Assembly (NCBI GenBank): GCA_039805765.1
Contig: JBDLTP010000031.1
Span: forward strand, 1-10,558
Length of the DNA stretch: 10,558 bases
Direction of reading: 5' to 3'
Origin: Pseudomonadota bacterium
GTDB lineage: Bacteria > Pseudomonadota > Gammaproteobacteria > Methylococcales > Methylomonadaceae
The notes under the pieces were generated by a model. That model had not been told where the DNA came from. It searched no databases and saw only the letters and a list, made by a program, of their open reading frames with translations. The position numbers were made by a program, and so were the translations under genes. Shown piece after piece: positions 277-10,241 of the stretch; positions within the stretch are counted from its first letter, which is position 1; each line of letters opens with the position of its first letter.

Positions 277-525
277 ATGCCTAGTTTACAAGTACGTTTA
301 GATGAAAAAGAAAAGCAAGAAACGTTTTCTATTTTGCACCAACTCGGCGTAACGCCTGCGCAAGCTGTGAGAATGTTTTTTGCAGAAGTAAGGGCAACAC
401 ATTCACTGCCTTTTGCCATTGATTGCATTCCCAATGCAAAAACAAAAACAGTACTGAACGACACGACCAACTATTCAGAACATTTTGACAGTGTGGATGA
501 TTTGTTTGCAGATTTAGAAAAATAA
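277..525 (+). CDS. dinJ: RelB/DinJ-family antitoxin (type II TA)
   Basis: 82 aa. N-terminal ribbon-helix-helix-like MPSLQVRLDEKEKQE...GVTPAQAVRMFF...LPF and C-terminal DDLFADL resemble E. coli DinJ. AAGGA lies upstream of the ATG, and the stop overlaps the toxin start (ATAATG). Confidence 0.85.
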   Translation: MPSLQVRLDEKEKQETFSILHQLGVTPAQAVRMFFAEVRATHSLPFAIDCIPNAKTKTVLNDTTNYSEHFDSVDDLFADLEK

Positions 526-812
526 TGCGTTCTCTTATTTACAAAAAATCATTTAAAAAGCAGTTTAAGCTAATGCAAAGTCGCGGAAAAGAGTTGGCAA
601 AATTGAAAACTGTCATTGAGATATTAGCAAATGATTTACCCATTCCGATAAATTATAAAGATCACGCGTTAACAGGTAATTTTGCCAGTTTCCGTGATAT
701 TCATATTGAACCTGATTGGATTTTGATTTATCAAAAACGCGAAGCTACAAGTGAATATCCAGCTGGAATATTATCACTTGAGTTAACGGGTACACATTCT
801 GATTTGTTTTAG
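525..812 (+). CDS. yafQ: YafQ-family mRNA interferase toxin (RelE superfamily)
   Basis: 95 aa. YKDHALTGNFASFRDIHIEPDWILIYQ...LTGTHSDLF closely parallels E. coli YafQ YKDHPLQGSWKGYRDAHVEPDWILIYK...RTGTHAALF. Translationally coupled to the antitoxin. Confidence 0.9.
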   Translation: MRSLIYKKSFKKQFKLMQSRGKELAKLKTVIEILANDLPIPINYKDHALTGNFASFRDIHIEPDWILIYQKREATSEYPAGILSLELTGTHSDLF

Positions 813-1024: not shown

Positions 1025-1240
1025 TTTATTCAATAGATTGATTTTTTAAATTATTATCAGAAATGGGGTCTGTAACCATAAAAAAATAGTGCTGCGGAAA
1101 TTTTATATAGAGTACTTTTCTACTTTCGGTGGTGATTTTGCACCTATAGTAGTGTGAAAAGTGGGGGTTGCTTTGCTGTTGTGATTGCGTTGCTTGAATG
1201 GGAATCATGCTGGTTAGTGATTGGTGGATGAAAATTAATC

Positions 1241-1286
1241 AAACAGGACGTTGTCATAACGTCGTGTTGTAACATCGTGCTGTTTT
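1241..1286 (+). repeat. 46-bp repeat R1: AAACAGGACGTTGTCATAACGTCGTGTTGTAACATCGTGCTGTTTT
   Basis: Member of a 7-copy family, all 46 bp with no indels and the same orientation. Differs from R7 at 4 of 46 positions. Outer 6-bp inverted ends AAACAG/CTGTTT; internal tandem units GTTGT(N0-3)AAC-RTCGT. Preceded by TAATC. Confidence 0.9.
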
Positions 1287-1330
1287 GTCATGTTAACGCG
1301 CAACACCAGATCCTCTCAATCAAAATAATC

Positions 1331-1376
1331 AAACAGATCGTTGTCATAACGTCGTGTTGTTTCGTCGTGCCGTTTG
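1331..1376 (+). repeat. 46-bp repeat R2: AAACAGATCGTTGTCATAACGTCGTGTTGTTTCGTCGTGCCGTTTG
   Basis: Same family and orientation as R1, 90 bp downstream (start to start). Preceded by TAATC. Confidence 0.85.
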
Positions 1377-1445
1377 GTTGAGTTAACCTTAACTCATTGT
1401 CATTCCTGCATTGTATTCATCCAGTACAGTAAGTCTGGCGTTTTA

Positions 1446-1543: not shown

Positions 1544-1614
1544 CAAAACGACAGGACTTGGAAAAATCAAAGTGCTTGATGCTGTTTTTATGGAATCAAC
1601 ACGTTCTGTTTGGA

Positions 1615-1821
1615 GCAAACCAAGTGCCATAAAAAACTCACACACATATAGTAAATAATTAAGTTCAAGTTGATTTTGTTATTTCATATCAATTAGAAAG
1701 AAAGAACAAAGGCAGGGTGATTTGGAAAAATCACCCTTGCTAGCATGCAGCGTAGCTGCTGCTCCTTATTCCAGCAAAACAAGTTCATTCTGATTTGTTA
1801 AAACAACAGCACTTGATTTGT
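1615..1821 (+). repeat. Noncoding element copy A (207 bp): promoter-like box, hairpin, conserved box 2; candidate sRNA or small-ORF locus
   Basis: Box 1 AAAAAACTCACACACATATAGTAAA at 1631-1655 (TATAGT at 1647-1652, possible -35 GTGCCA 17 bp upstream). 9-bp hairpin AGGGTGATT/AATCACCCT at 1714-1737. Box 2 CCTTGCTAGCATGCAGCGTAGCTGCTGCTCCTT at 1735-1767. Ends are GCAAACCAAGTGC (1615-1627) and GCACTTGATTTG (1809-1820), an imperfect inverted repeat. About 97% identical to copy B. Confidence 0.6.
1745..1801 (+). CDS. Candidate small ORF in element A (18 aa, MQRSCCSLFQQNKFILIC)
   Basis: The ATG lies inside conserved box 2. Both A-versus-B substitutions within it (1771 C/T, 1774 G/A) fall on third codon positions and are synonymous. 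There is no recognisable Shine-Dalgarno sequence, so this is very tentative. Confidence 0.25.
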   Translation: MQRSCCSLFQQNKFILIC

Positions 1822-1823
1822 TC

Positions 1824-1866
1824 AAACAGGTCCGCTCTAAATAATTTGAAGTGCTTGATGCTGTTT
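1824..1866 (+). repeat. R-like hybrid site between elements A and B (AAACAGGTC...AAGTGCTTGATGCTGTTT)
   Basis: Shares the first 9 nt (AAACAGGTC, as in R4) and the last 7 nt (GCTGTTT) with the 46-bp family, but the interior is unrelated. Its 3' 18-mer AAGTGCTTGATGCTGTTT recurs at 1570-1587, one tandem period upstream. Confidence 0.4.
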
Positions 1867-1894
1867 ATTGAATGCAATATGCCTTATTTTTTTT

Positions 1895-2101
1895 GCAAAC
1901 CAAGTGCCACAAAAAACTCACACACATATAGTAAATAATTAAGTTCAAGTTGAATTTGTTATTTCATATCAATTAGAAAGAAAGAACAAAGGCAGGGTGA
2001 TTTGGAAAAATCACCCTTGCTAGCATGCAGCGTAGCTGCTGCTCCTTATTTCAACAAAACAAGTTCATTCTGATTTGTTAAAACAACAGCACTTGGTTTG
2101 C
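1895..2101 (+). repeat. Noncoding element copy B (207 bp), tandem to copy A with a 280-bp period
   Basis: Box 1 at 1911-1935, hairpin at 1994-2017, box 2 at 2015-2047. Perfect 13-bp terminal inverted repeat GCAAACCAAGTGC (1895-1907) / GCACTTGGTTTGC (2089-2101). Confidence 0.6.
2025..2081 (+). CDS. Candidate small ORF in element B (18 aa, identical peptide to copy A)
   Basis: Same frame and peptide as 1745-1801 despite two nucleotide differences. No clear RBS. Confidence 0.25.
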   Translation: MQRSCCSLFQQNKFILIC

Positions 2102-2188
2102 TCAAATGACTTGGCTTTGTTTCGTTGCATTTAGGTGCAGCTGTCATTGTCTGATTGAGTTGTCTTCCTTTTTTTTATGGATAAAAGC

Positions 2189-2321: not shown

Positions 2322-3740
2322 TTAAGGCGTCCGGTTATATTTCGTTTCCTTTAAAAACCAGAATGGATTGCTTGCTTGTATTGCGCTATCAATTTGCAGT
2401 TTAATTGATGGAGATAATTGATCTTTAAGGACAATAGCGTCATGTACGTTTGCTAGGATCGTCAAATTATTTGTGTTTGCGTAGCTGCGAACAATGTTCA
2501 TTACTTCAGTTTCGGCACTTTGATAAAGATAAGCAAGCAGCTTTAAACGTTTAAAAACGCTTTCTGTATCCCTTAAAAAGGAATAGCTTAATATATAAGG
2601 TTGATTTGCTTTGACCATATTGATAATAGTGTCATTCAATATTTTCTGTTCGGCTACAAAATCAATAATTATTTGAGATTGCAAAAATGTATCGCGTTCA
2701 ACGTCATCTTTAAATATCTCTCCAATAGCTTGCCGGCATTGATTTCCTTGCTGATCAAAATACATGCCCGCTGAGCGCCTTGCACCAAAGTTCAATGCAG
2801 TCATCGCATCCTTAATTAGCCCAATTTGTTTTTCATCGTTGTAAAAGCCATCAGTAAATACATCGGCTCTAATAGCGTCAATCAGCACGGACTTATTGCT
2901 CCAGTATTGATGGCACTGAGGGAAAATGGATTGAATGCTACCGGATAAGTTGTTTTGATTGATGTAATCTTGTGCAAAGCCCAGTTTCCATGCGACTACG
3001 CTACTGCGCATATCGTATTCCCAGCAGTCACCAAGCATCGCTTCACGCAAGTCTTTACGGATATTTTGAACGCTCAAGCCTTCATAATAGGTACGTCCAA
3101 AATCGCTGTGTTTTTTCTTTTGATAATAGATGTTATTTTTCCAACTTGCGGCAGCCGCAATTCGTTTTGCTTGCAAGTAAACGGTTCTATCCTTAATGTT
3201 GAACTTGATATTTTGTGCTAGCAGATTAGCAAAGGGTTGAATGAAATTGTTTACCGACTCAACATCAACCTCGCAGCAATAATAGTCCGTATCAATTTCT
3301 TGCTGGCTGAGCTTATGAAAATTAGGGTGTAATTTGGTAAATGCTGATTGAGGATCAAGTCTATCATCCACATCGGTTATTTTAATGCGTGCAGTGGGTT
3401 TAACAAGCGATGGGCCTTTATGTGATCCGTGTTTTTGACCTTCTTGCTCCTTATGGATTAATTTCAAGTTGTTTTGTTCTAGCCAAGCGTGCAAGCGTAT
3501 AGATTTAGAACCCATTTGCGGTGTGTTGTTTTGTAAGTCATGTAAGTAGATGCCATACAAACCCAAATTGATATTTAATGAGTAATTTCCTCTCAATTCT
3601 GCTTCATCCAGTGCTTGTTCAAGTTTTTTTGTGTAGCTAGCCAAAAGCTTTGCATTTGAACGAACTGCGTTTGGTTTTTTAGGAAATGCAGCTTCTAGTG
3701 CAGCTAGCACGCTTGGATCAATAATTTGGATTTGAATCAT
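2322..3740 (-). CDS. Divergent minimal family-A (Pol I-like) polymerase homolog, with no recognisable exonuclease domain
   Basis: 472 aa. By-eye alignment to Taq/Klenow: FGRTYYEGLSVQNIRKDLREAM ~ TGRLSSSDPNLQNIP...IRRAF; WEYDMRSSVVAW ~ motif A LDYSQIELRVLA; IKDAMTALNFGA ~ motif B RRAAKTINFGVLYG; YQSAETEVMNIV ~ QGTAADLMKLAM; LANVHDAIVL ~ motif C LQVHDELVLE. Motif B to motif C spacing is 124 aa (122 in Taq). The N-terminal ~230 aa are unassignable. Confidence 0.75.
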   Translation of the reverse strand: MIQIQIIDPSVLAALEAAFPKKPNAVRSNAKLLASYTKKLEQALDEAELRGNYSLNINLGLYGIYLHDLQNNTPQMGSKSIRLHAWLEQNNLKLIHKEQEGQKHGSHKGPSLVKPTARIKITDVDDRLDPQSAFTKLHPNFHKLSQQEIDTDYYCCEVDVESVNNFIQPFANLLAQNIKFNIKDRTVYLQAKRIAAAASWKNNIYYQKKKHSDFGRTYYEGLSVQNIRKDLREAMLGDCWEYDMRSSVVAWKLGFAQDYINQNNLSGSIQSIFPQCHQYWSNKSVLIDAIRADVFTDGFYNDEKQIGLIKDAMTALNFGARRSAGMYFDQQGNQCRQAIGEIFKDDVERDTFLQSQIIIDFVAEQKILNDTIINMVKANQPYILSYSFLRDTESVFKRLKLLAYLYQSAETEVMNIVRSYANTNNLTILANVHDAIVLKDQLSPSIKLQIDSAIQASNPFWFLKETKYNRTP

Positions 3741-3808
3741 GCAATACCTAATTGGATATGCTGTAAATGGGGCAAGTCATAGCGACAAGTTTGAGCGTTA
3801 TCGTAATC

Positions 3809-4031
3809 AAAAAACTCACACACATATAGTAAAATTATATTTTCATATAGAAAAATAATGTTGAAATAAGAAAAAATGCAGGTGAATTTCAGAAAGCAAT
3901 GCGAGCTTTAGCGAGTGTTGTTGATGAAATGAGCCTTGCTAGCATGCAGCATAGCTGCTGCTCCTTTCATTGCTTCCATTCAGAAAAGCAATCCAAGTGT
4001 CGTTGTTTTGCCTGCGTTGTTTTTTTTTTTT
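3809..4031 (+). ncRNA. Noncoding element copy C: promoter-like box 1, structured region, box 2, hairpin, T12 (candidate ~195-nt plus-strand transcript)
   Basis: Box 1 is identical to copies A and B at 3809-3833 (TATAGT at 3825-3830). Hairpin ATTTCA/TGAAAT (3886-3891/3925-3930) closed by GG/CC sits just before box 2 (3934-3966), the position held by a hairpin of different sequence in A and B. 7-bp hairpin ATTGCTT/AAGCAAT at 3969-3992. T12 run at 4020-4031. Strand is inferred from the -10 box and the T run, not proven. Confidence 0.4.
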
Positions 4032-4033: not shown

Positions 4034-5098
4034 TTACCATCCATATACTGCGATTCGCTTTATTGGCTCGCCACGTTTATGCAGTGCAAGTTGTTCTTCA
4101 ATAAACTTCTTTTTAGCTTCCAACTTATGCAATTCAAGTCTTAATTGGAATTCGGGATCAACTGCTAGCAAATTAGCATGCCAATCTTCATCATGTGTTT
4201 TTAAGGGACTTTTATTCACACTATCCATTTTAAGCTTTGCCCATCGTCCATTCGATTCAAGTCGTCTGCGCATACATTGCCACATATAGCGATAATTGAT
4301 GTCAGGTATAGCAACTTTGTCTTTACATGGAAATTTTCCACGTGCGGCGTTTTCCATAATTAAATGAGAGTGATTAAGCATCCGGCAGGTTATATTTTCA
4401 AGTACCTGTGTAGCTTCAACCATATGATGTGGAATCCTTGTGACCGTAATATCTAAATCCGCGTATTTCTCACTCACACCTGCTTTTACGCCAAGTTTCC
4501 ATAGTGATAATTTTGGGTCGCTTGCTTTCATTAATAATAGACGAAGTGTAGTTGTAATTGATTCACAGTGAAAACGCTCACCATGTAAACTGTATTTTGC
4601 TTTAAGTGGCTCAATATAATCATTATCAATTTGTTCACTCACTGCTCTTAATATATCAGCTCGGCTGCCATCTAAAGGGACACCCAATAGCATAAAGCCA
4701 TAATGGTATCGGGCATATTTTTCTAATGCTGCTTTGCAAGCTTCAGTATCTGTAACATGGTCTTGTGGTACATAAGCTAAAGGCGTAGCTTGTAATTTGT
4801 GTACAGGCTCACCAAATAATTTGGCTTTTCCCATAAAGCTTGTCCACCAGATTCTAAATGGGAATTGATAAACATTTCCAAAATCATCATACGTTTTGCG
4901 TACTGCATCAAAGTCATCAGGCAATGCCGTTATTTCTTCTTTTGTTAATCCATCTTTAGCTGTTCGTTCTTTGTGAGCTTGAAAATATATAGGACTTAGG
5001 CGTAGATACTCGTACCAGAGCCTATATGGTTGGCTTCTTTCGTAGTGAAAAGTGCCTTTTAAGAACTCAAAACCCTCAATTTCCCATAATTCAGCCAT
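4034..5098 (-). CDS. Hypothetical protein, 354 aa (orphan; possible helix-turn-helix around LSLWKLGVKAGVSEKY)
   Basis: Long uninterrupted ORF with ordinary amino-acid composition and a weak RBS (GGTAGA). No family recognised from memory. Confidence 0.7.
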   Translation of the reverse strand: MAELWEIEGFEFLKGTFHYERSQPYRLWYEYLRLSPIYFQAHKERTAKDGLTKEEITALPDDFDAVRKTYDDFGNVYQFPFRIWWTSFMGKAKLFGEPVHKLQATPLAYVPQDHVTDTEACKAALEKYARYHYGFMLLGVPLDGSRADILRAVSEQIDNDYIEPLKAKYSLHGERFHCESITTTLRLLLMKASDPKLSLWKLGVKAGVSEKYADLDITVTRIPHHMVEATQVLENITCRMLNHSHLIMENAARGKFPCKDKVAIPDINYRYMWQCMRRRLESNGRWAKLKMDSVNKSPLKTHDEDWHANLLAVDPEFQLRLELHKLEAKKKFIEEQLALHKRGEPIKRIAVYGW

Positions 5099-5367: not shown

Positions 5368-6210
5368 ATGACACAAATTGACAAAACAACCAAAGCGGCA
5401 ACAGCACAATCAGTAATGGCTAAATTAGATGATTTAGTTATACAGCGCGAAGCGTTCCAAGCGGAATACGACAAAGTTAACGACACCTTATTTGATTTGT
5501 TAGCTGAGTGCTTGGAAGTCTATTTGACAACGAAAGGTGGCAAAGCGGAGAAAAATGTTTTAGAAGCCATCAAAAGCGATTTTGCAGCACGTTCAATTGA
5601 AATTGGACGTCAGCCAACTGTATTGAGTTTGATCGTTCGCTATGTGTTTATTGATGATAAAAAACATGGTCGCCGTATTCAGTCCTATGTACGTGCACTA
5701 TCTTACGCAATGCAATCGGGTGCTTCGCCAGCTACTTTTGCTGATTACGTTAAGAGTTTTGGTGGCATTGAAGAAGTTGTGTCAACGCAAGGTCCCAAGC
5801 CAGCGACCATTCTTAAACGTGACACGCTAAAAGCACAAGTATCAGTTGTTCAAAATGAATTACCTGATGCTCAAGTGCTTGCTACTGTTGCACCATCGCA
5901 CTTAGTTAAGCCAGAAGAAACGGGCGAATATACGTTGTTAATTGGTAAAACACTGTTGTCGGGTGAAACAGAAGTGTTAGCGGTTGTACCAAAAGCAACT
6001 GATGCAATGATCAAGCAAGCAATTGCCAAAATCGCTGATGCTGAAATTGAATTTCAAAAATTGCAATTAGCATTACTTGCTGCTCAAGCACCAGCAGTAA
6101 CAGCTACTATCGCATCAGTTCCAGTTGTTACAACTGTAATTGAAGCTAATGTTGATACTGAGGCTGAATCTGCTAACGATACGACTGATTTAGACAGTAT
6201 CGCAGCTTAA
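5368..6210 (+). CDS. Hypothetical protein, 280 aa (helical N-terminal part; Ala/Val/Thr-rich, acidic C-terminal tail)
   Basis: Good RBS (GGAG 8 nt upstream of the ATG) and a long ORF. No family recognised. Confidence 0.75.
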   Translation: MTQIDKTTKAATAQSVMAKLDDLVIQREAFQAEYDKVNDTLFDLLAECLEVYLTTKGGKAEKNVLEAIKSDFAARSIEIGRQPTVLSLIVRYVFIDDKKHGRRIQSYVRALSYAMQSGASPATFADYVKSFGGIEEVVSTQGPKPATILKRDTLKAQVSVVQNELPDAQVLATVAPSHLVKPEETGEYTLLIGKTLLSGETEVLAVVPKATDAMIKQAIAKIADAEIEFQKLQLALLAAQAPAVTATIASVPVVTTVIEANVDTEAESANDTTDLDSIAA

Positions 6211-6270: not shown

Positions 6271-6807
6271 ATGTATAAAATATTTGAAAATATTGAAACT
6301 AATATTATTGATTTTAATGTAGGAAAAATACTCGTCTGTAAAAATGACCCTTTTTTGAGAATTAAAACATTAAAAATGCTTGCGAACTGTCAAAAAATTA
6401 AAGAAATAGAACATAATTGGAATGATTATAGTAATACTGAAGAGTTTAAACAAAATAGATATATCAATCTAGCTTATAGTGCAATTGGTGAAAATGAGAG
6501 TGAAGATTTAAGGATTTTTAAGGTTGATAATTCGGCTACATCACAACAGTTGGTAACGACAAACTATTTCGTTAACGCACTTGAATTTGATGAAAACTCT
6601 TTTAAGCATTTTACACACTGTAAATATTTATTAAATGAATCTCAAAATTTTAAAGAAATATTTAATGATAATTTTGATTGTTCCTATCCTCAATTGGCAA
6701 AGAATAAAAAAAGCGAAATAGAGTATTACTTAGATGATTTTGAAAATAAGCTATGTAATTATTATACACAACAATTGAACAGCTACCATTTGAATAATAA
6801 ATGGTAA
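6271..6807 (+). CDS. Hypothetical protein, 178 aa, AT-rich paralog 1
   Basis: RBS GGAGG 7 nt upstream. Shares a core with the next ORF: FKVDNSATSQQLVTTNYFVNALEFDENSFKHFTHC versus FKVDDSATSKLIIYTGNVIGALEFDEPAFIDFVHC. Both end in KW. Confidence 0.7.
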   Translation: MYKIFENIETNIIDFNVGKILVCKNDPFLRIKTLKMLANCQKIKEIEHNWNDYSNTEEFKQNRYINLAYSAIGENESEDLRIFKVDNSATSQQLVTTNYFVNALEFDENSFKHFTHCKYLLNESQNFKEIFNDNFDCSYPQLAKNKKSEIEYYLDDFENKLCNYYTQQLNSYHLNNKW

Positions 6808-6859: not shown

Positions 6860-7348
6860 ATGAATATTGGAAGAATATTGTTCTTTAAAGATGAAAATAA
6901 CGATATTGATATTAATGAGCTAAGAATAAATCTTTCGTGTAATGAAATAGTAGAGGTTCAGTGGATTAAAAAATATCTTTATCAATGCTGTATTTCAATC
7001 GAATCTATGTACGATTTTGATGATTACAAAGTTTTTAAGGTTGATGATTCTGCAACTTCTAAATTAATAATCTATACAGGAAATGTAATTGGTGCACTTG
7101 AATTTGATGAGCCAGCTTTTATAGATTTCGTGCACTGTATACAGCTAAAAGTAGTTAACAGTTTTTTAAATAATGTTGATAATTATATGGATTTATTACA
7201 GAGTCATCCTTTTGATTCAATCCATGTCGATAGACCTAATGAATTGATAGAAGAGCTTAAAGTGAATTTAGTCAATTTATTTTATACACCAAATTTAATG
7301 GAAGACCCTGATGTACGTTTAAAACGTCATTTAAGTTTAAAATGGTAG
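6860..7348 (+). CDS. Hypothetical protein, 162 aa, AT-rich paralog 2
   Basis: RBS GAGGA upstream. Paralogous to 6271-6807 and followed by a strong terminator. Confidence 0.7.
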   Translation: MNIGRILFFKDENNDIDINELRINLSCNEIVEVQWIKKYLYQCCISIESMYDFDDYKVFKVDDSATSKLIIYTGNVIGALEFDEPAFIDFVHCIQLKVVNSFLNNVDNYMDLLQSHPFDSIHVDRPNELIEELKVNLVNLFYTPNLMEDPDVRLKRHLSLKW

Positions 7349-7501: not shown

Positions 7502-7564
7502 TGTGCCATCTTAAAAATAAATTCCTATTTCTTATTTAAAACAATCAATTACAGAAAAATATTT

Positions 7565-7610
7565 AAACAAGTTGTTGTCGTAACATCGCGTTGTAACATC
7601 GTACTGTTTT
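7565..7610 (+). repeat. 46-bp repeat R5: AAACAAGTTGTTGTCGTAACATCGCGTTGTAACATCGTACTGTTTT
   Basis: Same family and orientation. Confidence 0.85.
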
Positions 7611-7650
7611 ATCGTTTCATCAAAATTACTGCATGCTTTGTTATCATCTC

Positions 7651-7696
7651 AAATAGAGCGTTGTCGTAACGTCGTGTTGTAACATCGCGCTGTTTT
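7651..7696 (+). repeat. 46-bp repeat R6: AAATAGAGCGTTGTCGTAACGTCGTGTTGTAACATCGCGCTGTTTT
   Basis: Same family and orientation. Confidence 0.85.
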
Positions 7697-7770
7697 TGTA
7701 AAATGGGATAATATGTTGAATTTTAAATGGACTTTCTTATTAATAAACAGATAGTTGTATCAAAATGATA

Positions 7771-7816
7771 AAACAGGCCGTTGTCGTAACGTTGTGTTGT
7801 AACATCGTGCTGTTTG
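7771..7816 (+). repeat. 46-bp repeat R7: AAACAGGCCGTTGTCGTAACGTTGTGTTGTAACATCGTGCTGTTTG
   Basis: Same family and orientation. Lies 54 bp from the stop codon of the recombinase gene. A short partial start (AAACAGATAGTTGTATC) lies at 7745-7761. Confidence 0.9.
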
Positions 7817-7828
7817 CATGATGTAACG

Positions 7829-7869: not shown

Positions 7870-8436
7870 TTAGATCAACGCCACCGCTTGACGTTTCATA
7901 TCATCATTTACATCAATATAGCGCTGTGTGGTAGAAATACAAGAATGGCCGGCAAGGGAAGCAAGTACACGAACGCTAACGCCTTTCGCTGCTAACGTGG
8001 TAATGAACGTGCGTCTGCCGGAATGTGAACTTGCGCCATTTAAGCCCGCGCGTTTGTAGAGCCAGAAAAAATATTGCGCAAGCGTATTCGCAGTAAAGCC
8101 TCTGCGTTTTTGCGTAGTGAAAAATGGCTCGGTTGGATTAACGCGTGTTAACTCCTTTGCGTAGCTCTGCAACTCTTTCTGCAAGCGCTCATTTAAAAAG
8201 ACCGTGCGTTCATGTCCGCCTTTCGTTTGCGTAGCCAGTAAACGTATTTCATTTCTAACAATGCCACTTTCGTCAATTACATCGCAATAACGCAGCTGAG
8301 CCACTTCGCCTACACGTAATCCGCCAAGCGTTGTCAGTAAAAACATCGCCCGATTGCGTTTTGCGTGTTTGTCTAAAGCGATCATTGCGAGCACTTGTTT
8401 AATTTCGGGTTGGGTAAGTGTTTTAGCTTGTGACAT
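7870..8436 (-). CDS. Minimal tyrosine recombinase (catalytic domain only, ~188 aa)
   Basis: Catalytic signature present: GGLRVGE (Arg I), HSGRRT (His-x-x-Arg), LAGHS and TTQRY (Tyr nucleophile). Start chosen at MSQAKTL (ATG 8436) because GGAG lies 8 nt upstream; the longest ORF would start at 8487. Confidence 0.85.
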   Translation of the reverse strand: MSQAKTLTQPEIKQVLAMIALDKHAKRNRAMFLLTTLGGLRVGEVAQLRYCDVIDESGIVRNEIRLLATQTKGGHERTVFLNERLQKELQSYAKELTRVNPTEPFFTTQKRRGFTANTLAQYFFWLYKRAGLNGASSHSGRRTFITTLAAKGVSVRVLASLAGHSCISTTQRYIDVNDDMKRQAVALI

Positions 8437-8474
8437 GGTGTTTTGCTCCAATAGATAATAATTTGTGTGCGTAA

Positions 8475-8504
8475 AGTATATTTTCATATCTTCGCAAATA
8501 GCAA
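8475..8504 (-). promoter_or_regulatory. Putative promoter for the 7870-8436 recombinase gene (-35 TTGCTA, 18-bp spacer, -10 TATACT on the minus strand)
   Basis: Hexamers read directly from the reverse complement. Not supported by anything else. Confidence 0.3.
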
Positions 8505-8574: not shown

Positions 8575-9093
8575 CTATTTGGTTTTGAACATTTTTAATG
8601 ACAGAAAAGAATAAGCGGATTTTGAGCTATCTGCGTCTTGCGCGTGTAAATAAGTATTCCGACAAGATTCGCTGCTTGCATCAATGCCTAAGTTTTTAAA
8701 CAACCAAAAGAAATGCTGCGTAAGTGTATTTTGAGAAAATCCGCGTTTGGGTTCTTTTTGAGTATAAAACAATGGCGCTGCTGGATTAAGGTCATTAAGC
8801 GTGGCAATGTAGCGTTGCAGTTCAATTTTAAGTCCTTTGCATATTAAAACGCTGTGGACTTGCTGGTTTTTGGCTTGCTCTGGTCGCAAATGGATTTCAT
8901 CTCGCACCTGCCCACATTCATCAAGTACATCGCCAACAAGTAATGCAGCAGTTTCTTTTACGGAAAGCCCAGCAAGTACCATAATTAAAATCATTGCCCG
9001 ATTGCGCTCTGCGTGTTTAGTGACTGCAATGCTATCAAGTGTCCGCTTGAGATCGTCGCAGGTTAATATTTTGGCTGTTTTGATGTTTTTCAT
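8575..9093 (-). CDS. Tyrosine-recombinase-like paralog, catalytically degenerate and C-terminally truncated (accessory protein or pseudogene)
   Basis: 172 aa, clearly paralogous to the neighbour (KHAERNRAMILIMVLAGLSVKET versus KHAKRNRAMFLLTTLGGLRVGEV; FFWLFKNLG versus FFWLYKRAG). However, Arg I is Ser, HSGRR is ESCRN, and the ORF ends before the GH...Y segment. Good RBS (GGAG). Confidence 0.65.
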   Translation of the reverse strand: MKNIKTAKILTCDDLKRTLDSIAVTKHAERNRAMILIMVLAGLSVKETAALLVGDVLDECGQVRDEIHLRPEQAKNQQVHSVLICKGLKIELQRYIATLNDLNPAAPLFYTQKEPKRGFSQNTLTQHFFWLFKNLGIDASSESCRNTYLHAQDADSSKSAYSFLSLKMFKTK

Positions 9094-9223: not shown

Positions 9224-9297
9224 GCCATTTCCGGTTGTCCAACCAACGCCTCTGAAACTAAAGTTATGTCACATTAACTTAGATCGGAGTACACAAC
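9224..9297 (+). promoter_or_regulatory. Conserved promoter/operator/leader, copy 1 (-35 TTGTCC 9235-9240, 18-bp spacer, -10 TAAAGT 9259-9264, palindrome 9258-9282, RBS GGAG)
   Basis: A 74-bp block repeated in inverted orientation at 10168-10241. The hexamers and palindrome are conserved while the spacer differs. Confidence 0.55.
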
Positions 9298-9738
9298 ATG
9301 GCAACATTACTTAGCTCACTTAAATTAGTTTCAGCAACACGCGACAACAAAGTTTCACCCGTATTGCAGCGCAGACAAAAATTAATCAAAAAAATTGATG
9401 AACAAATGGAGCTGGCGAAGGCGCAAGCAAACGGATCAATTTATAGTCCGACCAAATTCAAAAATATCGTTAATGCTGAAACAGGTACAAATGAGTACAA
9501 GCAAGTACCAAAACGTATTCGCGCTTGGTGGTGGAAAAACGAAGCAGGCAAATTGAATTTGGTTGTGCGTTATGGCGCACGTATTATTGAATTGGGCAAA
9601 GGAAAAAACAGCATTGAACTTGAAAACGAAGCAGCCATTTTGCCAACGCTTGAAGTAATCAAAAAAGCAGTTGAAGCTGGCGAGCTAGATGATGCAATGA
9701 CGGCTGTGAGCAAAGCCGTGTTGTTAAATCTTAACTGA
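9298..9738 (+). CDS. Hypothetical protein, 146 aa (plasmid/ICE-type small conserved protein; family not named)
   Basis: Good RBS, then a strong terminator. RRQKLIKKIDEQ...RAWWWKNEAGKLNLVVRYGARIIELGKGKNSIEL feels familiar from genomic islands, but I cannot name the family reliably. Confidence 0.7.
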   Translation: MATLLSSLKLVSATRDNKVSPVLQRRQKLIKKIDEQMELAKAQANGSIYSPTKFKNIVNAETGTNEYKQVPKRIRAWWWKNEAGKLNLVVRYGARIIELGKGKNSIELENEAAILPTLEVIKKAVEAGELDDAMTAVSKAVLLNLN

Positions 9739-9798: not shown

Positions 9799-10167
9799 TC
9801 AATATTCACGCGGCAACATAATCACCCACATGTCACCTGTGTAACACGCGTAAAGTTTTATCACATCAAGTTCAAAATCCGTGTATTCAATAAATTGCTC
9901 AGCAAGGATGTTGTCGTTCCCATCATCCAATTTCAGCAAAGCTGTGCACGAACTTTCAGAGCGCGAAACAGTTAAATTAGCAACGATGAAAGTTTCCTTT
10001 TGCGTAAACTCCGGCAGGTAACTTGCAATTGCAGTCATAAGCCAATATGCGCCACCTTTGTCAGCAACGAACTTTGCTCCATCCGTTATTACTGTATCAG
10101 GTGTAATGCGATAGTAACGCTCTGTGCCGCTGAAGTTGTTTAATTCATTTACCCATTGTGCTGTCAT
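9799..10167 (-). CDS. Hypothetical protein, 122 aa, resembling the DUF6876-type proteins of plasmids/ICEs
   Basis: FSGTERYYR...TDGAKFVADKGGAYWLMTAI...YTDFEL matches my recollection of that family signature (F-GTE-YYR, TDG, GAYWL). The family name comes from memory and is unverified. Confidence 0.65.
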   Translation of the reverse strand: MTAQWVNELNNFSGTERYYRITPDTVITDGAKFVADKGGAYWLMTAIASYLPEFTQKETFIVANLTVSRSESSCTALLKLDDGNDNILAEQFIEYTDFELDVIKLYACYTGDMWVIMLPREY

Positions 10168-10241
10168 TTTTTGTACTCCGATTAAAGTTAATGTGAAATA
10201 ACTTTAATTTCAGACCGACTTAATGGACAACCGGAAATGGC
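10168..10241 (-). promoter_or_regulatory. Conserved promoter/operator/leader, copy 2 (minus strand: -35 TTGTCC 10230-10225, -10 TAAAGT 10206-10201, perfect palindrome ATTAAAGTTA-N8-TAACTTTAAT 10181-10208)
   Basis: Inverted copy of 9224-9297, positioned identically relative to its start codon. Confidence 0.55.

What the first reader, a model, noticed from the sequence alone, without database searches (positions are those of the whole stretch)
2322..3740. Minimal, exonuclease-less PolA-family protein with conserved catalytic aspartates but a rewired nucleotide-binding pocket
The C-terminal ~240 aa align by eye to all palm and fingers landmarks of family-A polymerases: the GR...QNI pre-motif, motif A D, motif B NFG, the Q-x-x-A-x-x-x-M helix and motif C HD. 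Motif B to C spacing is near-canonical (124 versus 122 residues in Taq). In that alignment several canonical residues are replaced. The steric-gate Glu of DYSQIE is Val (DMRSSV). The O-helix Lys three residues before NFG is Thr. The O-helix Tyr (FGxxYG) is Arg. HDE is HDA. There is no 3'-5' or 5'-3' exonuclease domain, and the N-terminal ~230 aa match nothing I recognise. A standalone 472-aa PolA-like enzyme in an accessory locus, beside recombinases and a structured noncoding element, is not a standard replication or repair gene. Possibilities include relaxed sugar selectivity, template-independent or RNA-primed or RNA-templated synthesis, an element-encoded replicase, or a defence-type nucleotide polymerase. 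All of these are speculative.
Basis: partly seen in the sequence, partly recalled or inferred. Interest (0 to 1): 0.85.

Follow-up and report, generated by a model that had tools for sequence, protein, structure and literature searches.

The report
Minimal PolA-fold polymerase of mobile islands
The gene encodes a stripped-down, proofreading-free relative of DNA polymerase I that belongs with the 'TV-Pol' polymerases of transposons and viruses. It is probably the replication enzyme (primase-polymerase) of a mobile genomic island, so it is a large uncharacterised subfamily of a known kind rather than a new kind of enzyme.

Summary
The 472-aa ORF at 2322-3740(-) is real, intact and conserved: 837 clusters at 50% identity match its profile. 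No sequence library recognises it (Pfam, NCBIfam, PHROGs, PADLOC, PDB sequences). A confident AlphaFold model (pLDDT 92) matches only family-A DNA polymerases in the PDB. In the viral library it matches virophage TVpol-helicase proteins about five orders of magnitude better than canonical phage PolA.

R216, D243, K310 and G319 are invariant, and F318, H433 and D434 nearly so. No conserved acidic motif exists in the N-domain, so the enzyme is exonuclease-less.

Loss of the steric-gate Glu (V/A/S) and of the HDE Glu (A/G/C/S) is family-wide. The "Lys→Thr" and "Tyr→Arg" changes most likely come from an alignment shifted by one helical turn. The "N" of NFG is not conserved, and K310-x7-F318-G319 fits K758-x7-Y766-G767.

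Homologs sit in tRNA-adjacent integrative islands of freshwater Betaproteobacteria. They travel with tyrosine recombinases, DUF6641 and DUF6876, and never with a helicase. The 354-aa gene is not a constant neighbour.

Best reading: a TV-Pol-type element replicase or primase-polymerase. This is inferred, not shown.

The parts
2322..3740 (-). Gene for the 472-aa minimal PolA-fold (TV-Pol-like) polymerase
   Evidence: ORF. 100% identical protein P0001 on a 16.5-kb metagenomic contig. 837 representative clusters match the family profile. AF2 model pLDDT 92. Foldseek hits to family-A polymerases and virophage TVpol proteins.
3267..3740 (-). N-terminal domain (aa 1-158), mixed alpha/beta, retained across the whole family. 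No conserved acidic residues. Possibly a degenerate 3'-5' exonuclease-fold remnant.
   Evidence: The best 150 representatives nearly all match from profile position 1. DSSP of the model. No conserved D/E. Weak hhalign alignment to Klenow residues 371-506.
3132..3266 (-). Thumb: two long antiparallel helices (aa 160-175 and 182-200)
   Evidence: DSSP of the AF2 model. Matches the TV-Pol/PolA thumb description (PMC2579912).
3066..3095 (-). Pre-motif A hairpin FGRTYYEGLSVQ, with invariant R216 (3093-3095) and Q225 (3066-3068)
   Evidence: R216 117/117, Q225 111/117. Corresponds to Pol I R668...Q677.
2997..3014 (-). Motif A: catalytic D243 (3012-3014). V248 (2997-2999) sits at the position of the Pol I steric-gate E710.
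   Evidence: D243 117/117. Position 248 is V74/A33/S6 and never E. D243 lies at the end of strand 239-244.
2784..2813 (-). Motif B on the O-like helix: invariant K310 (2811-2813), T314, F318-G319 (2784-2789)
   Evidence: K310 117/117, F318 114/117, G319 117/117, N317 not conserved. Helix 302-317 ends just before F318-G319. K->D spacing of 124 equals that of E. coli Pol I.
2436..2444 (-). Motif C: H433-D434-A435 (HDA; Pol I has HDE, T7 RNAP has HDS)
   Evidence: H433 116/117, D434 115/117. Position 435 is A/G/C/S and never E. Reference residues verified.
9298..9738 (+). DUF6641 gene. This is the most frequent partner of the polymerase gene elsewhere (usually directly downstream), but it is detached in this window.
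   Evidence: Pfam PF20346 E 3.8e-14. 47% identical to the copy directly downstream of the polymerase in L003. Within 600 bp downstream on the same strand in 25/53 loci, and within 8 kb in 18/23. Model pLDDT 78 with no fold match.
9799..10167 (-). DUF6876 gene, a recurrent island gene usually upstream of the polymerase gene
   Evidence: Pfam PF21781 E 1.6e-30. Present in 14/23 well-flanked loci. Shares a 56-nt leader sequence with DUF6641 (inverted repeat I1).
7870..8487 (-). Short (205-aa) tyrosine recombinase, catalytic domain only. A recurrent island gene.
   Evidence: Pfam Phage_integrase E 1.7e-26. Cluster c2 is present in 20/23 well-flanked loci.
8575..9093 (-). Second, degenerate short tyrosine-recombinase paralog (172 aa)
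   Evidence: Weak Phage_integrase match, E 3e-4, covering profile positions 2-128 of 172. Same cluster c2.
4034..5098 (-). 354-aa gene directly upstream (family c4), function unknown, an optional island gene
   Evidence: No hit in Pfam, NCBIfam, PHROGs, PADLOC or PDB. Present in 9/23 well-flanked loci, usually divergent from family c8.
5368..6210 (+). 280-aa gene (family c8), divergent partner of c4, function unknown
   Evidence: No significant family or PDB hit. Present in 7/23 well-flanked loci.
3808..3966 (+). Putative small transcription unit antisense to the polymerase leader. Its promoter-like block and terminator hairpin are shared with the 280-bp tandem units.
   Evidence: Repeat families D5 and D6. 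Terminator-like hairpin at 3946-3961. Three-way alignment A7. No Rfam match.
1604..2106 (+). Two tandem 280-bp units just 3' of the polymerase gene. Each has a promoter-like site and a terminator-like hairpin on the + strand, plus a minus-strand hairpin with a T-rich tail that could terminate the polymerase transcript.
   Evidence: Repeat family D2, 95% identity. Promoter and terminator scan.

Best explanation
The gene encodes a catalytically competent, proofreading-free polymerase with the thumb-palm-fingers core of family-A polymerases. It belongs with, or immediately beside, the TV-Pol group of transposon and virus polymerases. It is a core gene of a family of integrative islands that insert next to tRNA genes by a tyrosine integrase.

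Proposed mechanism:
- After excision, the circular element needs its own initiation of DNA synthesis.
- This enzyme starts strands de novo and/or extends them at an element origin. It uses two-metal catalysis by D243 and D434, with K310 as the general acid and F318-G319 closing the O-like helix over the incoming nucleotide.
- The product is then handed to the host replisome.
- The Pol I steric-gate Glu and the HDE Glu are absent. The same positions are Gly and Ser in T7 RNA polymerase. Sugar selectivity is therefore likely relaxed, which would suit primer synthesis.

Shown here: the fold, the invariant residues, the absence of a nuclease motif, the mobile-island context and the recurrent partner genes.

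Inferred: polymerase activity, priming, sugar preference, element replication, and any role for DUF6641 or DUF6876.
For: Fold:
- AF2 model with pLDDT 92.2 and pTM 0.87.
- All 50 top PDB hits are family-A DNA polymerases.
- In the viral library, virophage and giant-virus TVpol-helicase proteins (Zamilon V6BPG7, F2Y0M9 and others) score E 2e-11 to 1e-9 over about 335 columns. Canonical phage PolA proteins score 6e-6 or worse in the same library. Sputnik V13 and OLV25 N-termini are TVpol domains (PMC3671162).

Sequence:
- Profile-profile P=1.9e-4 over 304 columns to the Ma-LMM01 MAP_030 family, with all motifs in register. This compares with P=0.007 for Pol I and 0.09 for T7 RNAP.
- Invariant R216, D243, K310 and G319, and near-invariant F318, H433, D434, Q407 and E410, across 117 diverse members. 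The family has 837 clusters, so it is under purifying selection and is not a dead domain.

Context:
- Homologs lie in islands with a ~460-aa integrase directly beside tRNA-Asn, tRNA-Arg or tRNA-Val.
- Short tyrosine recombinases occur in 20/23 well-flanked loci, DUF6641 in 18/23 and DUF6876 in 14/23.
- No other recognisable replication protein is present in a complete island.

Precedent:
- TV-Pols were predicted to be primase-polymerases of replicative mobile elements (PMC2579912).
- The TV-Pol CcPol, together with MP, is an experimentally shown primer-independent DNA primase (PMC7581432).

In this window the gene is flanked by iteron-like repeats and by a possible antisense transcription unit over its leader. 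This layout is typical of replicon control regions.
Against: - No activity has been measured for any member of this family.
- No helicase is fused or adjacent, although helicase linkage was the main contextual argument for priming in classic TV-Pols and in CcPol-MP.
- The frequent downstream partner DUF6641 shows no OB or SSB fold. Its best Foldseek E-value is 0.43 on a pLDDT-78 model. DUF6641 also occurs in islands that lack the polymerase (L053).
- The Arg of the TV-Pol/PolA RxxxK motif is not conserved in my preferred register.
- The sequence link to a named TV-Pol is weak. The family HMM scores 0 bits against MAP_030, and the hhalign probability is only 48%. That MAP_030 is the Ma-LMM01 TV-Pol is my inference from its motifs and the neighbouring transposases.
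- Replication of these islands after excision has not been shown.
Confidence: 0.55

Rival explanations
1. It is a primer-dependent DNA polymerase only. It extends 3' ends during island replication, or fills gaps during integration, excision or repair, and priming is done by host DnaG or another factor.
For: CcPol without its partner MP only extends primers (PMC7581432). No SSB-like or zinc-binding priming module was found here. All PDB fold matches are primer-dependent DNA polymerases.
Against: The host already supplies Pol I and Pol III, so a mobile element gains little from a non-processive, non-proofreading extender. The closest structural relatives are TVpol domains that occupy the primase position in primase-helicase fusions.
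Confidence: 0.2
2. It is a defence-type nucleotide polymerase carried as island cargo. On phage infection it would make a signalling or toxic nucleic acid.
For: Islands of this kind often carry defence genes. A restriction-type ResIII helicase gene sits next to the island in L039, and the window has a RelB/YafQ toxin-antitoxin pair. The pocket substitutions could allow unusual substrates.
Against: There is no PADLOC match. The gene behaves as a core gene with fixed position relative to recombinases across many islands, not as variable cargo. Relatives are also encoded by phages themselves.
Confidence: 0.08
3. It is a minimal single-subunit RNA polymerase that transcribes island genes, like a T7-type RNA polymerase.
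For: The two positions where it departs from Pol I (E710->V/A and E883->A/G/S) are Gly and Ser in T7 RNAP. TV-Pols are related to both DNA and RNA polymerase lineages (PMC2579912).
Against: No T7-like RNAP appears among the top 50 PDB fold matches. The hhalign P-value to T7 RNAP is 0.09, against 0.007 for Pol I. Phe replaces the Tyr that T7 RNAP uses to select ribose. The protein has no promoter-recognition or N-terminal RNAP domains, being 472 aa against 883 aa.
Confidence: 0.07
4. It is a catalytically dead polymerase fold used as a DNA-binding or structural protein.
For: Some 'Pol' partners in the PolA-SSB family have lost their catalytic residues (PMC10061031). Several canonical pocket residues are missing here.
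Against: Both metal-binding Asp, the Arg of the template hairpin, a motif-B Lys, the aromatic-Gly pair and the motif-C His are invariant or nearly so across 117 divergent members.
Confidence: 0.03

Closest known systems
TV-Pol / TVpol family (Iyer, Abhiman & Aravind 2008, PMC2579912), e.g. the N-terminal domain of Sputnik V13 and the Ma-LMM01 element polymerase
   Same: - Minimal family-A core: two-helix thumb, Arg-bearing hairpin, two-Asp palm, helical fingers with a conserved Lys.
- Never linked to a nuclease.
- 400-600 aa, some with an extra N-terminal domain.
- Encoded by mobile elements with lambda-type integrases.
- Virophage TVpol domains are the best characterised structural matches.
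- Best profile-profile match, P=1.9e-4, to the Ma-LMM01 candidate.
   Different: - Not connected by HMM-to-sequence searches, and no library names it.
- The Arg of RxxxK is not conserved.
- No D5/S3H helicase is fused or adjacent.
- The N-domain is mixed alpha/beta in the model, not all-helical as TV-PolN was predicted to be.
- It has its own partner set: DUF6641, DUF6876 and short tyrosine recombinases.
- I could not check whether any sequence of this family was in the 2008 alignment, because the supplement is not held.
CcPol-MP primase of SCCmec and the PolA-SSB primases of Bacillota (Bebel et al. 2020, PMC7581432; Rice 2023, PMC10061031)
   Same: - An exonuclease-deficient PolA-fold enzyme of an integrative island.
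- A small gene often lies directly downstream (DUF6641 here, MP there).
- The N-terminal region is possibly a truncated exonuclease fold.
- It offers a working precedent for a PolA-fold primase.
   Different: - Proteobacteria rather than Bacillota.
- Tyrosine rather than large serine recombinases.
- No helicase in the operon.
- DUF6641 shows no OB fold.
- CcPol keeps the two residues that discriminate against ribonucleotides, whereas this family has V/A at the steric-gate position.
Bacterial DNA polymerase I polymerase domain (Klenow/Klentaq) and T7 DNA polymerase
   Same: Overall fold (Foldseek E about 1e-5, TM about 0.4). Shared R668, Q677, D705, H881 and D882 equivalents. The K-to-D spacing of 124 is identical to E. 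coli Pol I.
   Different: About 10% identity and no Pfam DNA_pol_A match. No exonuclease domains. E710->V/A and E883->A/G/C/S. Either the R754 or the K758/Y766 equivalents are missing, depending on the register.
T7-like single-subunit RNA polymerases
   Same: Same right-hand superfamily. A small residue sits at the steric-gate position, and motif C is HD followed by a small residue (HDS in T7, HDA here). The K-x7-aromatic-Gly motif B spacing is shared.
   Different: Half the size, with no promoter-binding domains. Phe replaces the ribose-sensing Tyr. There is no significant profile or fold match.

Membership tests
Family A DNA polymerase (Pfam DNA_pol_A) | Significant match to the family sequence profile | tested here: not met
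   No Pfam or NCBIfam hit at E<=1. The family HMM does not report E. coli Pol I or T7 DNAP with filters off. Best hhalign P-value is 0.007.
Family A DNA polymerase (Pfam DNA_pol_A) | Thumb-palm-fingers fold of Klenow/Taq | tested here: met
   AF2 pLDDT 92. All 50 top Foldseek PDB hits are family-A polymerases, E 7.7e-6 to 8e-4, probability 1.00.
Family A DNA polymerase (Pfam DNA_pol_A) | Two catalytic Asp (motifs A and C) | tested here: met
   D243 117/117 and D434 115/117. Both lie at the ends of adjacent palm strands.
Family A DNA polymerase (Pfam DNA_pol_A) | Motif B R-x3-K-x3-F-x3-Y-G on the O helix | tested here: inconclusive
   K310, F318 and G319 are invariant. Two registers four residues apart both place them on conserved Pol I residues. 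Helix boundaries and the K-to-D spacing favour K310=K758 and F318=Y766, in which case the Arg is absent. This needs 3D superposition.
Family A DNA polymerase (Pfam DNA_pol_A) | Steric-gate Glu (E710) and motif C HDE Glu (E883) | tested here: not met
   Position 248 is V74/A33/S6. Position 435 is A91/G11/C10/S4. Neither is ever Glu.
TV-Pol (Iyer et al. 2008) | Minimal core: two-helix antiparallel thumb, then a beta-hairpin with an absolutely conserved Arg | tested here: met
   Helices 160-175 and 182-200, then strand 204-210 and R216. R216 is 117/117.
TV-Pol (Iyer et al. 2008) | RRM-like palm with two conserved Asp | tested here: met
   D243 and D434.
TV-Pol (Iyer et al. 2008) | Fingers with an RxxxK motif | tested here: inconclusive
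The Lys (K310) is invariant. Position 306, four residues before it, is variable (V/I/K/T/R/L).
TV-Pol (Iyer et al. 2008) | No nuclease domain fused or linked | tested here: met
   No conserved acidic motif in the N-domain. No nuclease gene among the recurrent neighbours.
TV-Pol (Iyer et al. 2008) | Encoded by a mobile element or virus with an integrase, resolvase or transposase | tested here: met
   The integrase lies beside tRNA genes. Tyrosine recombinases occur in 20/23 loci. Relatives are present on viral contigs and in a Desulfovibrio phage.
TV-Pol (Iyer et al. 2008) | Sequence-profile connection to a named TV-Pol | tested here: inconclusive
   hhalign P=1.9e-4, probability 48%, to the Ma-LMM01 MAP_030 family, with all motifs in register. 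The HMM-to-sequence score is 0 bits. MAP_030's identity as the published TV-Pol is inferred.
TV-Pol (Iyer et al. 2008) | Structural similarity to recognised TVpol domains exceeds that to canonical PolA | tested here: met
   In BFVD, virophage TVpol-helicase proteins score E 2e-11 to 1e-9, against 6e-6 or worse for canonical phage PolA. TVpol assignment of V13 and OLV25 is from PMC3671162.
TV-Pol (Iyer et al. 2008) | Fusion or linkage to a D5/S3H helicase (one subset only) | tested here: not met
   The best 150 representatives are 450-720 aa with no extra helicase-sized region. No helicase family appears among the conserved neighbours.
PolA-SSB primase (CcPol-MP) | Small OB-fold ssDNA-binding partner encoded directly downstream | tested here: not met
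   DUF6641 lies directly downstream in 25/53 loci. Its model (pLDDT 78) has no OB or SSB match, with best E 0.43. The PDB profile search found nothing. The model's confidence is only moderate.
PolA-SSB primase (CcPol-MP) | Helicase in the same operon and a large serine recombinase locus | tested here: not met
   No helicase is present, and the recombinases are tyrosine-type.
PolA-SSB primase (CcPol-MP) | Primer-independent DNA synthesis | not testable with these tools
   Requires biochemistry.
T7-like single-subunit RNA polymerase | Profile or fold match to T7 RNAP; Tyr639-type ribose selection | tested here: not met
   Absent from the top 50 PDB fold hits. hhalign P=0.09. The aromatic residue is Phe in 114/117 members.

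The most novel reading that the evidence does not exclude
This family is a helicase-independent, self-priming PolA-fold replicase with relaxed sugar selectivity. It has V/A in place of the steric-gate Glu and no third carboxylate. Together with DUF6641 and DUF6876 it would form a previously unrecognised replication module for tRNA-integrating islands and some phages of freshwater Proteobacteria. That would make it a third, independently evolved solution for PolA-type priming, alongside TVpol-helicase fusions and CcPol-MP.
Probability: 0.25. Interest if true: 0.65.

Novelty: new member of a known kind. Interest (0 to 1): 0.45.

Why it matters
- Only one TV-Pol-type enzyme (CcPol-MP) has ever been assayed.
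- This is a large, unnamed branch: 837 clusters at 50% identity, with no Pfam, NCBIfam or PHROG model. It has a very confident structural model and clearly invariant catalytic residues.
- It occurs in cultured Limnohabitans strains, so island replication and the enzyme's priming and sugar preference could be tested directly.
- It would also give annotation pipelines a name for hundreds of 'hypothetical proteins', and it links two domains of unknown function (DUF6641 and DUF6876) to a replication-type gene.
- It does not open a new category of enzyme.

Tried and rejected
Sequence and profile searches that found nothing:
- Sequence-library scans of the polymerase gave no hits in Pfam, NCBIfam, PHROGs or PADLOC.
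- PDB sequence searches with the single protein and with the profile gave only spurious hits, including a serpin and a lectin.
- Megablast of the whole window against plasmids found no match.
- Rfam and tRNA scans of the window found nothing.

Alignments to reference polymerases:
- hhalign of the 45-sequence alignment against single Pol I, T7 RNAP and T7 DNAP sequences was not significant.
- hhalign against the Ma-LMM01 family was also not significant with that alignment. It became informative only with a 121-sequence profile.
- hhalign cannot settle the motif B register, and it misplaces motif A by about four residues.

Partner genes:
- I first compared the 354-aa gene with the wrong neighbour in L003. 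Clustering later showed that its true homolog there is the 246-aa gene.
- The idea that DUF6641 is an MP-like OB-fold SSB was tested and is not supported.
- Families c4 and c8 gave nothing in Pfam or the PDB.
- The small ORFs downstream of the viral relatives are not DUF6641.

Other dead ends:
- tblastn bridges from phage and viral relatives to other phages found nothing.
- The 2008 TV-Pol supplementary alignment is not held.
- The iteron-like repeats are not stable hairpins, with z-scores from -2.6 to +1.2. They are absent from the other 89 loci.

Readings rejected:
- A fragment of a disrupted phage polymerase: rejected because full-length conservation includes the N-domain.
- A dead domain: rejected because of the invariant catalytic residues.
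Full report
OBSERVATION

It is not a chance ORF.
- An identical protein is on record from a 16.5-kb metagenomic contig of a 'Pseudomonadota bacterium' MAG.
- A word-indexed search returned more than 422 homologs, none with a Pfam domain or a name.
- An exhaustive profile search of 1.84 billion cluster representatives found 837 clusters at E<=1e-3 and 343 at E<=1e-30. The best 150 nearly all match from the first profile position, so the N-terminal domain belongs to the family and the gene is not a fragment.

WHAT SEQUENCE METHODS SAY

- There is no match to Pfam DNA_pol_A or any other Pfam, NCBIfam, PHROGs or PADLOC model at E<=1.
- PDB sequence searches with the protein or the family profile gave nothing meaningful.
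- A family HMM run with all filters off does not report E. coli Pol I, T7 DNA polymerase or T7 RNA polymerase.

WHAT STRUCTURE SAYS

An AlphaFold2 model built on a 45-sequence alignment is very confident, with mean pLDDT 92.2 and pTM 0.87.
- Against the PDB, all 50 best Foldseek matches are family-A DNA polymerases: apicoplast Pol, M. smegmatis Pol1, Klenow, Taq and T7. E-values run from 7.7e-6, probability is 1.00, TM is about 0.4 and identity is about 10%.
- Against predicted viral structures, the top two hits are uncharacterised phage proteins (E 1.7e-28 and 2.6e-20).
- Most of the next hits are virophage and giant-virus replication proteins of 700-1300 aa, matched over about 335 columns at E 2e-11 to 1e-9 (F2Y0M9, Zamilon V6BPG7, a Pyramimonas orientalis virus protein, Catovirus).
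- Canonical phage PolA proteins appear only from E 6e-6 in the same library.
- The Sputnik V13 and OLV25 class of virophage proteins is a fusion of an N-terminal TVpol domain with an S3H helicase (PMC3671162).

The fold claim is therefore confirmed, and the nearest characterised relatives are TVpol domains.

CONSERVED RESIDUES

I aligned 117 diverse full-length members.

| Residue | Conservation |
|---|---|
| R216 | 117/117 |
| D243 | 117/117 |
| K310 | 117/117 |
| G319 | 117/117 |
| F318 | 114/117 |
| A320 | 115/117 |
| Q225 | 111/117 |
| Q407 | 114/117 |
| E410 | 115/117 |
| H433 | 116/117 |
| D434 | 115/117 |

In the model, D243 ends strand 239-244 and H433-D434 lie in the 428-438 hairpin. 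This is the palm geometry expected for motifs A and C. The domain is not dead.

The N-terminal 150 residues have no conserved acidic residue, so there is no DEDD-type exonuclease site. A weak profile alignment places residues 2-130 on Klenow 371-506, the 3'-5' exonuclease domain after its first motif. The N-domain may therefore be a degenerate remnant of that fold, as described for CcPol-type enzymes (PMC10061031). This is a hint, not a result.

THE 'REWIRED POCKET'

- The residue five positions after the motif A Asp (E710 in E. coli Pol I) is V74/A33/S6 and never Glu.
- The residue after HD (E883) is A91/G11/C10/S4 and never Glu.
- The same two positions are Gly542 and Ser813 in T7 RNA polymerase.

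The other two claims rest on pairing the window's N317-F318-G319 with Pol I N761-F762-G763.
- N317 is not conserved: it is G47/S43/N8 across the family.
- hhalign reproduces that pairing only by opening a 4-5 residue gap exactly at the invariant K310.
- The O-helix motif has a period of four (R754, K758, F762, Y766). Two registers therefore both put the invariant residues on conserved Pol I positions.

|---|---|---|
| K310 | R754 | K758 |
| T314 | K758 | F762 |
| F318 | F762 | Y766 |
| G319 | G763 | G767 |

Three observations favour the alternative register.
- The model's helix runs 302-317 and stops just before F318-G319. The Pol I O helix likewise ends at Y766-G767 and the T7 RNAP helix at Y639-G640 (the helix limits of the reference enzymes are from my own knowledge).
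- This register keeps the general-acid Lys that is conserved in this superfamily.

I put about 70% on the alternative register. In that case the pocket lacks the Arg of RxxxK and has Thr in place of F762, but it keeps the Lys and an aromatic-Gly pair. Only a 3D superposition, which these tools do not offer, can settle this.

GENOMIC CONTEXT

I fetched 73 loci from one-genome-per-species contigs.
- Most are freshwater Betaproteobacteria (Limnohabitans, Comamonadaceae, Oxalobacteraceae, Burkholderiaceae). A few are Methylococcales, Thiosymbion or Legionellaceae.
- Many lie inside large chromosomal contigs.

I clustered all ORFs in these loci. A recurring order appears, for example in L039, L023 and L038:
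1. short tyrosine recombinase
2. DUF6876
3. polymerase
4. DUF6641
5. a low-complexity protein
6. a divergent pair (the families of the window's 354-aa and 280-aa genes)
7. two or three small genes
8. a ~460-aa integrase

tRNA-Asn (or tRNA-Arg/Pro, or tRNA-Val) lies directly beside that integrase. These are tRNA-targeting integrative islands.

Linkage counts:

| Gene family | Frequency |
|---|---|
| DUF6641 within 600 bp downstream, same strand | 25 of 53 loci with enough flank |
| DUF6641 within 8 kb | 18/23 |
| Short tyrosine recombinase within 8 kb | 20/23 |
| DUF6876 within 8 kb | 14/23 |
| 354-aa family within 8 kb | 9/23 |
| 280-aa family within 8 kb | 7/23 |

Other context results:
- In a complete island, Pfam recognises only the two recombinases and DUF6876. 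There is no helicase and no other replication protein.
- Five viral contigs and a Desulfovibrio phage encode standalone relatives of 520-770 aa. Their small downstream ORFs are not DUF6641.

In the window itself the module is rearranged. DUF6641 and DUF6876 sit 5.5 kb away, convergent, behind nearly identical 56-nt leaders.

PARTNER PROTEINS

DUF6641 was the obvious candidate for an MP-like ssDNA-binding partner.
- Its model (pLDDT 78) has two N-terminal helices, a small beta core and a C-terminal helix.
- No PDB fold match reaches significance; the best E-value is 0.43.
- A profile search of PDB sequences finds only helical-repeat noise.
- DUF6641 also occurs next to integrases in islands without the polymerase (L053).

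The SSB idea is therefore not supported. The 354-aa and 280-aa families have no Pfam or PDB relatives.

COMPARISON WITH WHAT IS KNOWN

- Iyer, Abhiman and Aravind (2008) defined TV-Pol as the minimal catalytic unit of the PolA/T7-RNAP class. Members are 400-600 aa, are never linked to nucleases, and occur in viruses and in bacterial mobile elements with resolvases, lambda-type integrases or transposases. Some have an extra N-terminal domain and some are fused to D5 helicases. The authors predicted them to be primase-polymerases (PMC2579912).
- Bebel et al. (2020) showed that one TV-Pol, SCCmec CcPol, is a primer-independent, dNTP-using primase when bound to the small protein MP. They also showed that it keeps the two residues that exclude ribonucleotides (PMC7581432).
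- Rice (2023) extended this to PolA-SSB pairs, all in Bacillota (PMC10061031).

To test membership by sequence, I took the 506-aa hypothetical gene MAP_030 of Microcystis phage Ma-LMM01.
- It lies beside two transposase genes.
- It carries the motifs GLRVYEKGGGLQ...FREVLL, NYD, VKTAVLAVINGARL and QHDGAL.
- The 2008 paper lists this phage as a carrier but does not name the gene, so the identification is my inference.
- HMM-to-sequence comparison gives 0 bits.
- Profile-profile comparison with a 121-sequence query gives P=1.9e-4 over 304 columns with every motif in register. Pol I gives 0.007, T7 RNAP 0.09 and T7 DNAP 0.22.

Fold, motifs and context therefore fit TV-Pol, and the sequence link is suggestive but not conclusive. 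The family differs from described TV-Pols in four ways:
- It lacks any helicase link.
- It lacks the conserved Arg of RxxxK.
- It has its own partner genes.
- It has V/A at the steric-gate position.

No paper in the searchable library mentions DUF6641 or DUF6876 or describes this proteobacterial family.

MECHANISM

The best-supported reading is that this is the island's own replication enzyme.
- After integrase-mediated excision, it would initiate and/or extend DNA synthesis on the circular element. It would use D243 and D434 for two-metal catalysis and K310 as the general acid, and the host replisome would take over.
- Priming is inferred from the TV-Pol and CcPol precedent, and from the absence of any other replication gene. 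It is not inferred from any feature I could test.
- Loss of both Glu residues suggests relaxed sugar selectivity, which would suit primer synthesis.
- The window's noncoding surroundings fit a replicon control region: iteron-like repeats bracketing a 280-bp tandem duplication 3' of the gene, and a paralogous promoter-to-terminator unit antisense to the polymerase leader. These features are specific to this contig and untested.

I give this reading 0.55. The rivals are a primer-dependent polymerase only (0.2), a defence polymerase (0.08), a minimal RNA polymerase (0.07) and a dead fold (0.03).

VERDICT

The most striking part of the interpretation, loss of the O-helix Lys and Tyr, is probably an alignment artefact. 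The class has been known since 2008 and has had one biochemically proven member since 2020.

What is new:
- a very large, unnamed, structurally well-defined branch
- a distinct island context
- family-wide loss of the ribose-excluding Glu

I rate it a new member of a known kind, with interest 0.45.

Noticed in passing
window 1604-2106 and 3808-3966: There is a 280-bp tandem duplication (95% identical) just 3' of the polymerase gene. Each unit has a + strand promoter-like site (GTGCCA-17-TATAGT) and, about 100 nt later, a terminator-like hairpin. The same 24-nt promoter block and 45-nt terminator block recur in the 354-aa/polymerase intergenic region, antisense to the polymerase leader, with a different body between them. 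These may be small countertranscript RNAs. There is no Rfam match.
   Followed up: partly
window 1232-1387, 2180-2320, 7556-7827: Seven same-orientation copies of a 45-66-nt iteron-like unit, each made of three ~13-nt sub-repeats (CGTnGTTGTnAAC...). They bracket the 280-bp units and lie 3' of the short tyrosine recombinase gene. They form only weak hairpins, and the pattern is absent from the other 89 fetched loci. They could be a candidate origin or recombinase-binding sites.
   Followed up: partly
window 9224-9306 and 10159-10241: The convergent DUF6641 and DUF6876 genes are each preceded by the same ~56-nt leader (86% identical as an inverted repeat), plus a perfect 18-nt inverted repeat further out. 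This points either to shared regulation or to an invertible segment next to the two short tyrosine recombinase genes.
   Followed up: no
window 6271-6807 and 6860-7348: Two paralogous, extremely AT-rich genes (about 25% GC, against about 38% for the window) of 178 and 162 aa have no family match. They look like recently acquired cargo.
   Followed up: no
window 277-812: A RelB/DinJ antitoxin and YafQ toxin pair (type II toxin-antitoxin) lies at one end of the window.
   Followed up: no
window 8575-9093: The second short tyrosine recombinase (172 aa) matches only profile positions 2-128 of 172 of the Phage_integrase domain. It probably lacks the C-terminal catalytic region.
   Followed up: no
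L053 (Limnohabitans parvus II-B4), whole locus: Three tandem island-like units each end in DUF6641 followed by a ~450-aa integrase, but only one carries the polymerase gene. DUF6641 therefore belongs to the island backbone and is not strictly a polymerase partner.
   Followed up: partly
L084:5386-7689 (Desulfovibrio phage 7757, OR395405, unannotated record): A 767-aa phage protein is a distant member of the family (HMM E 7e-30). It carries K-x7-Y-G in motif B and has about 250 extra N-terminal and about 130 extra C-terminal residues.
   Followed up: partly
L090:22746-24266 (Microcystis phage Ma-LMM01, MAP_030): A 506-aa hypothetical protein beside two transposase genes carries TV-Pol-type motifs. 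It has no Pfam hit and only six homologs in the 5.8-billion-protein collection.
   Followed up: partly
L039:4541-7993: A 1150-aa ResIII/SNF2-type helicase gene and a 1052-aa neighbour (restriction-like) lie immediately outside the short-recombinase end of the island. They are possibly defence cargo or an adjacent island.
   Followed up: no
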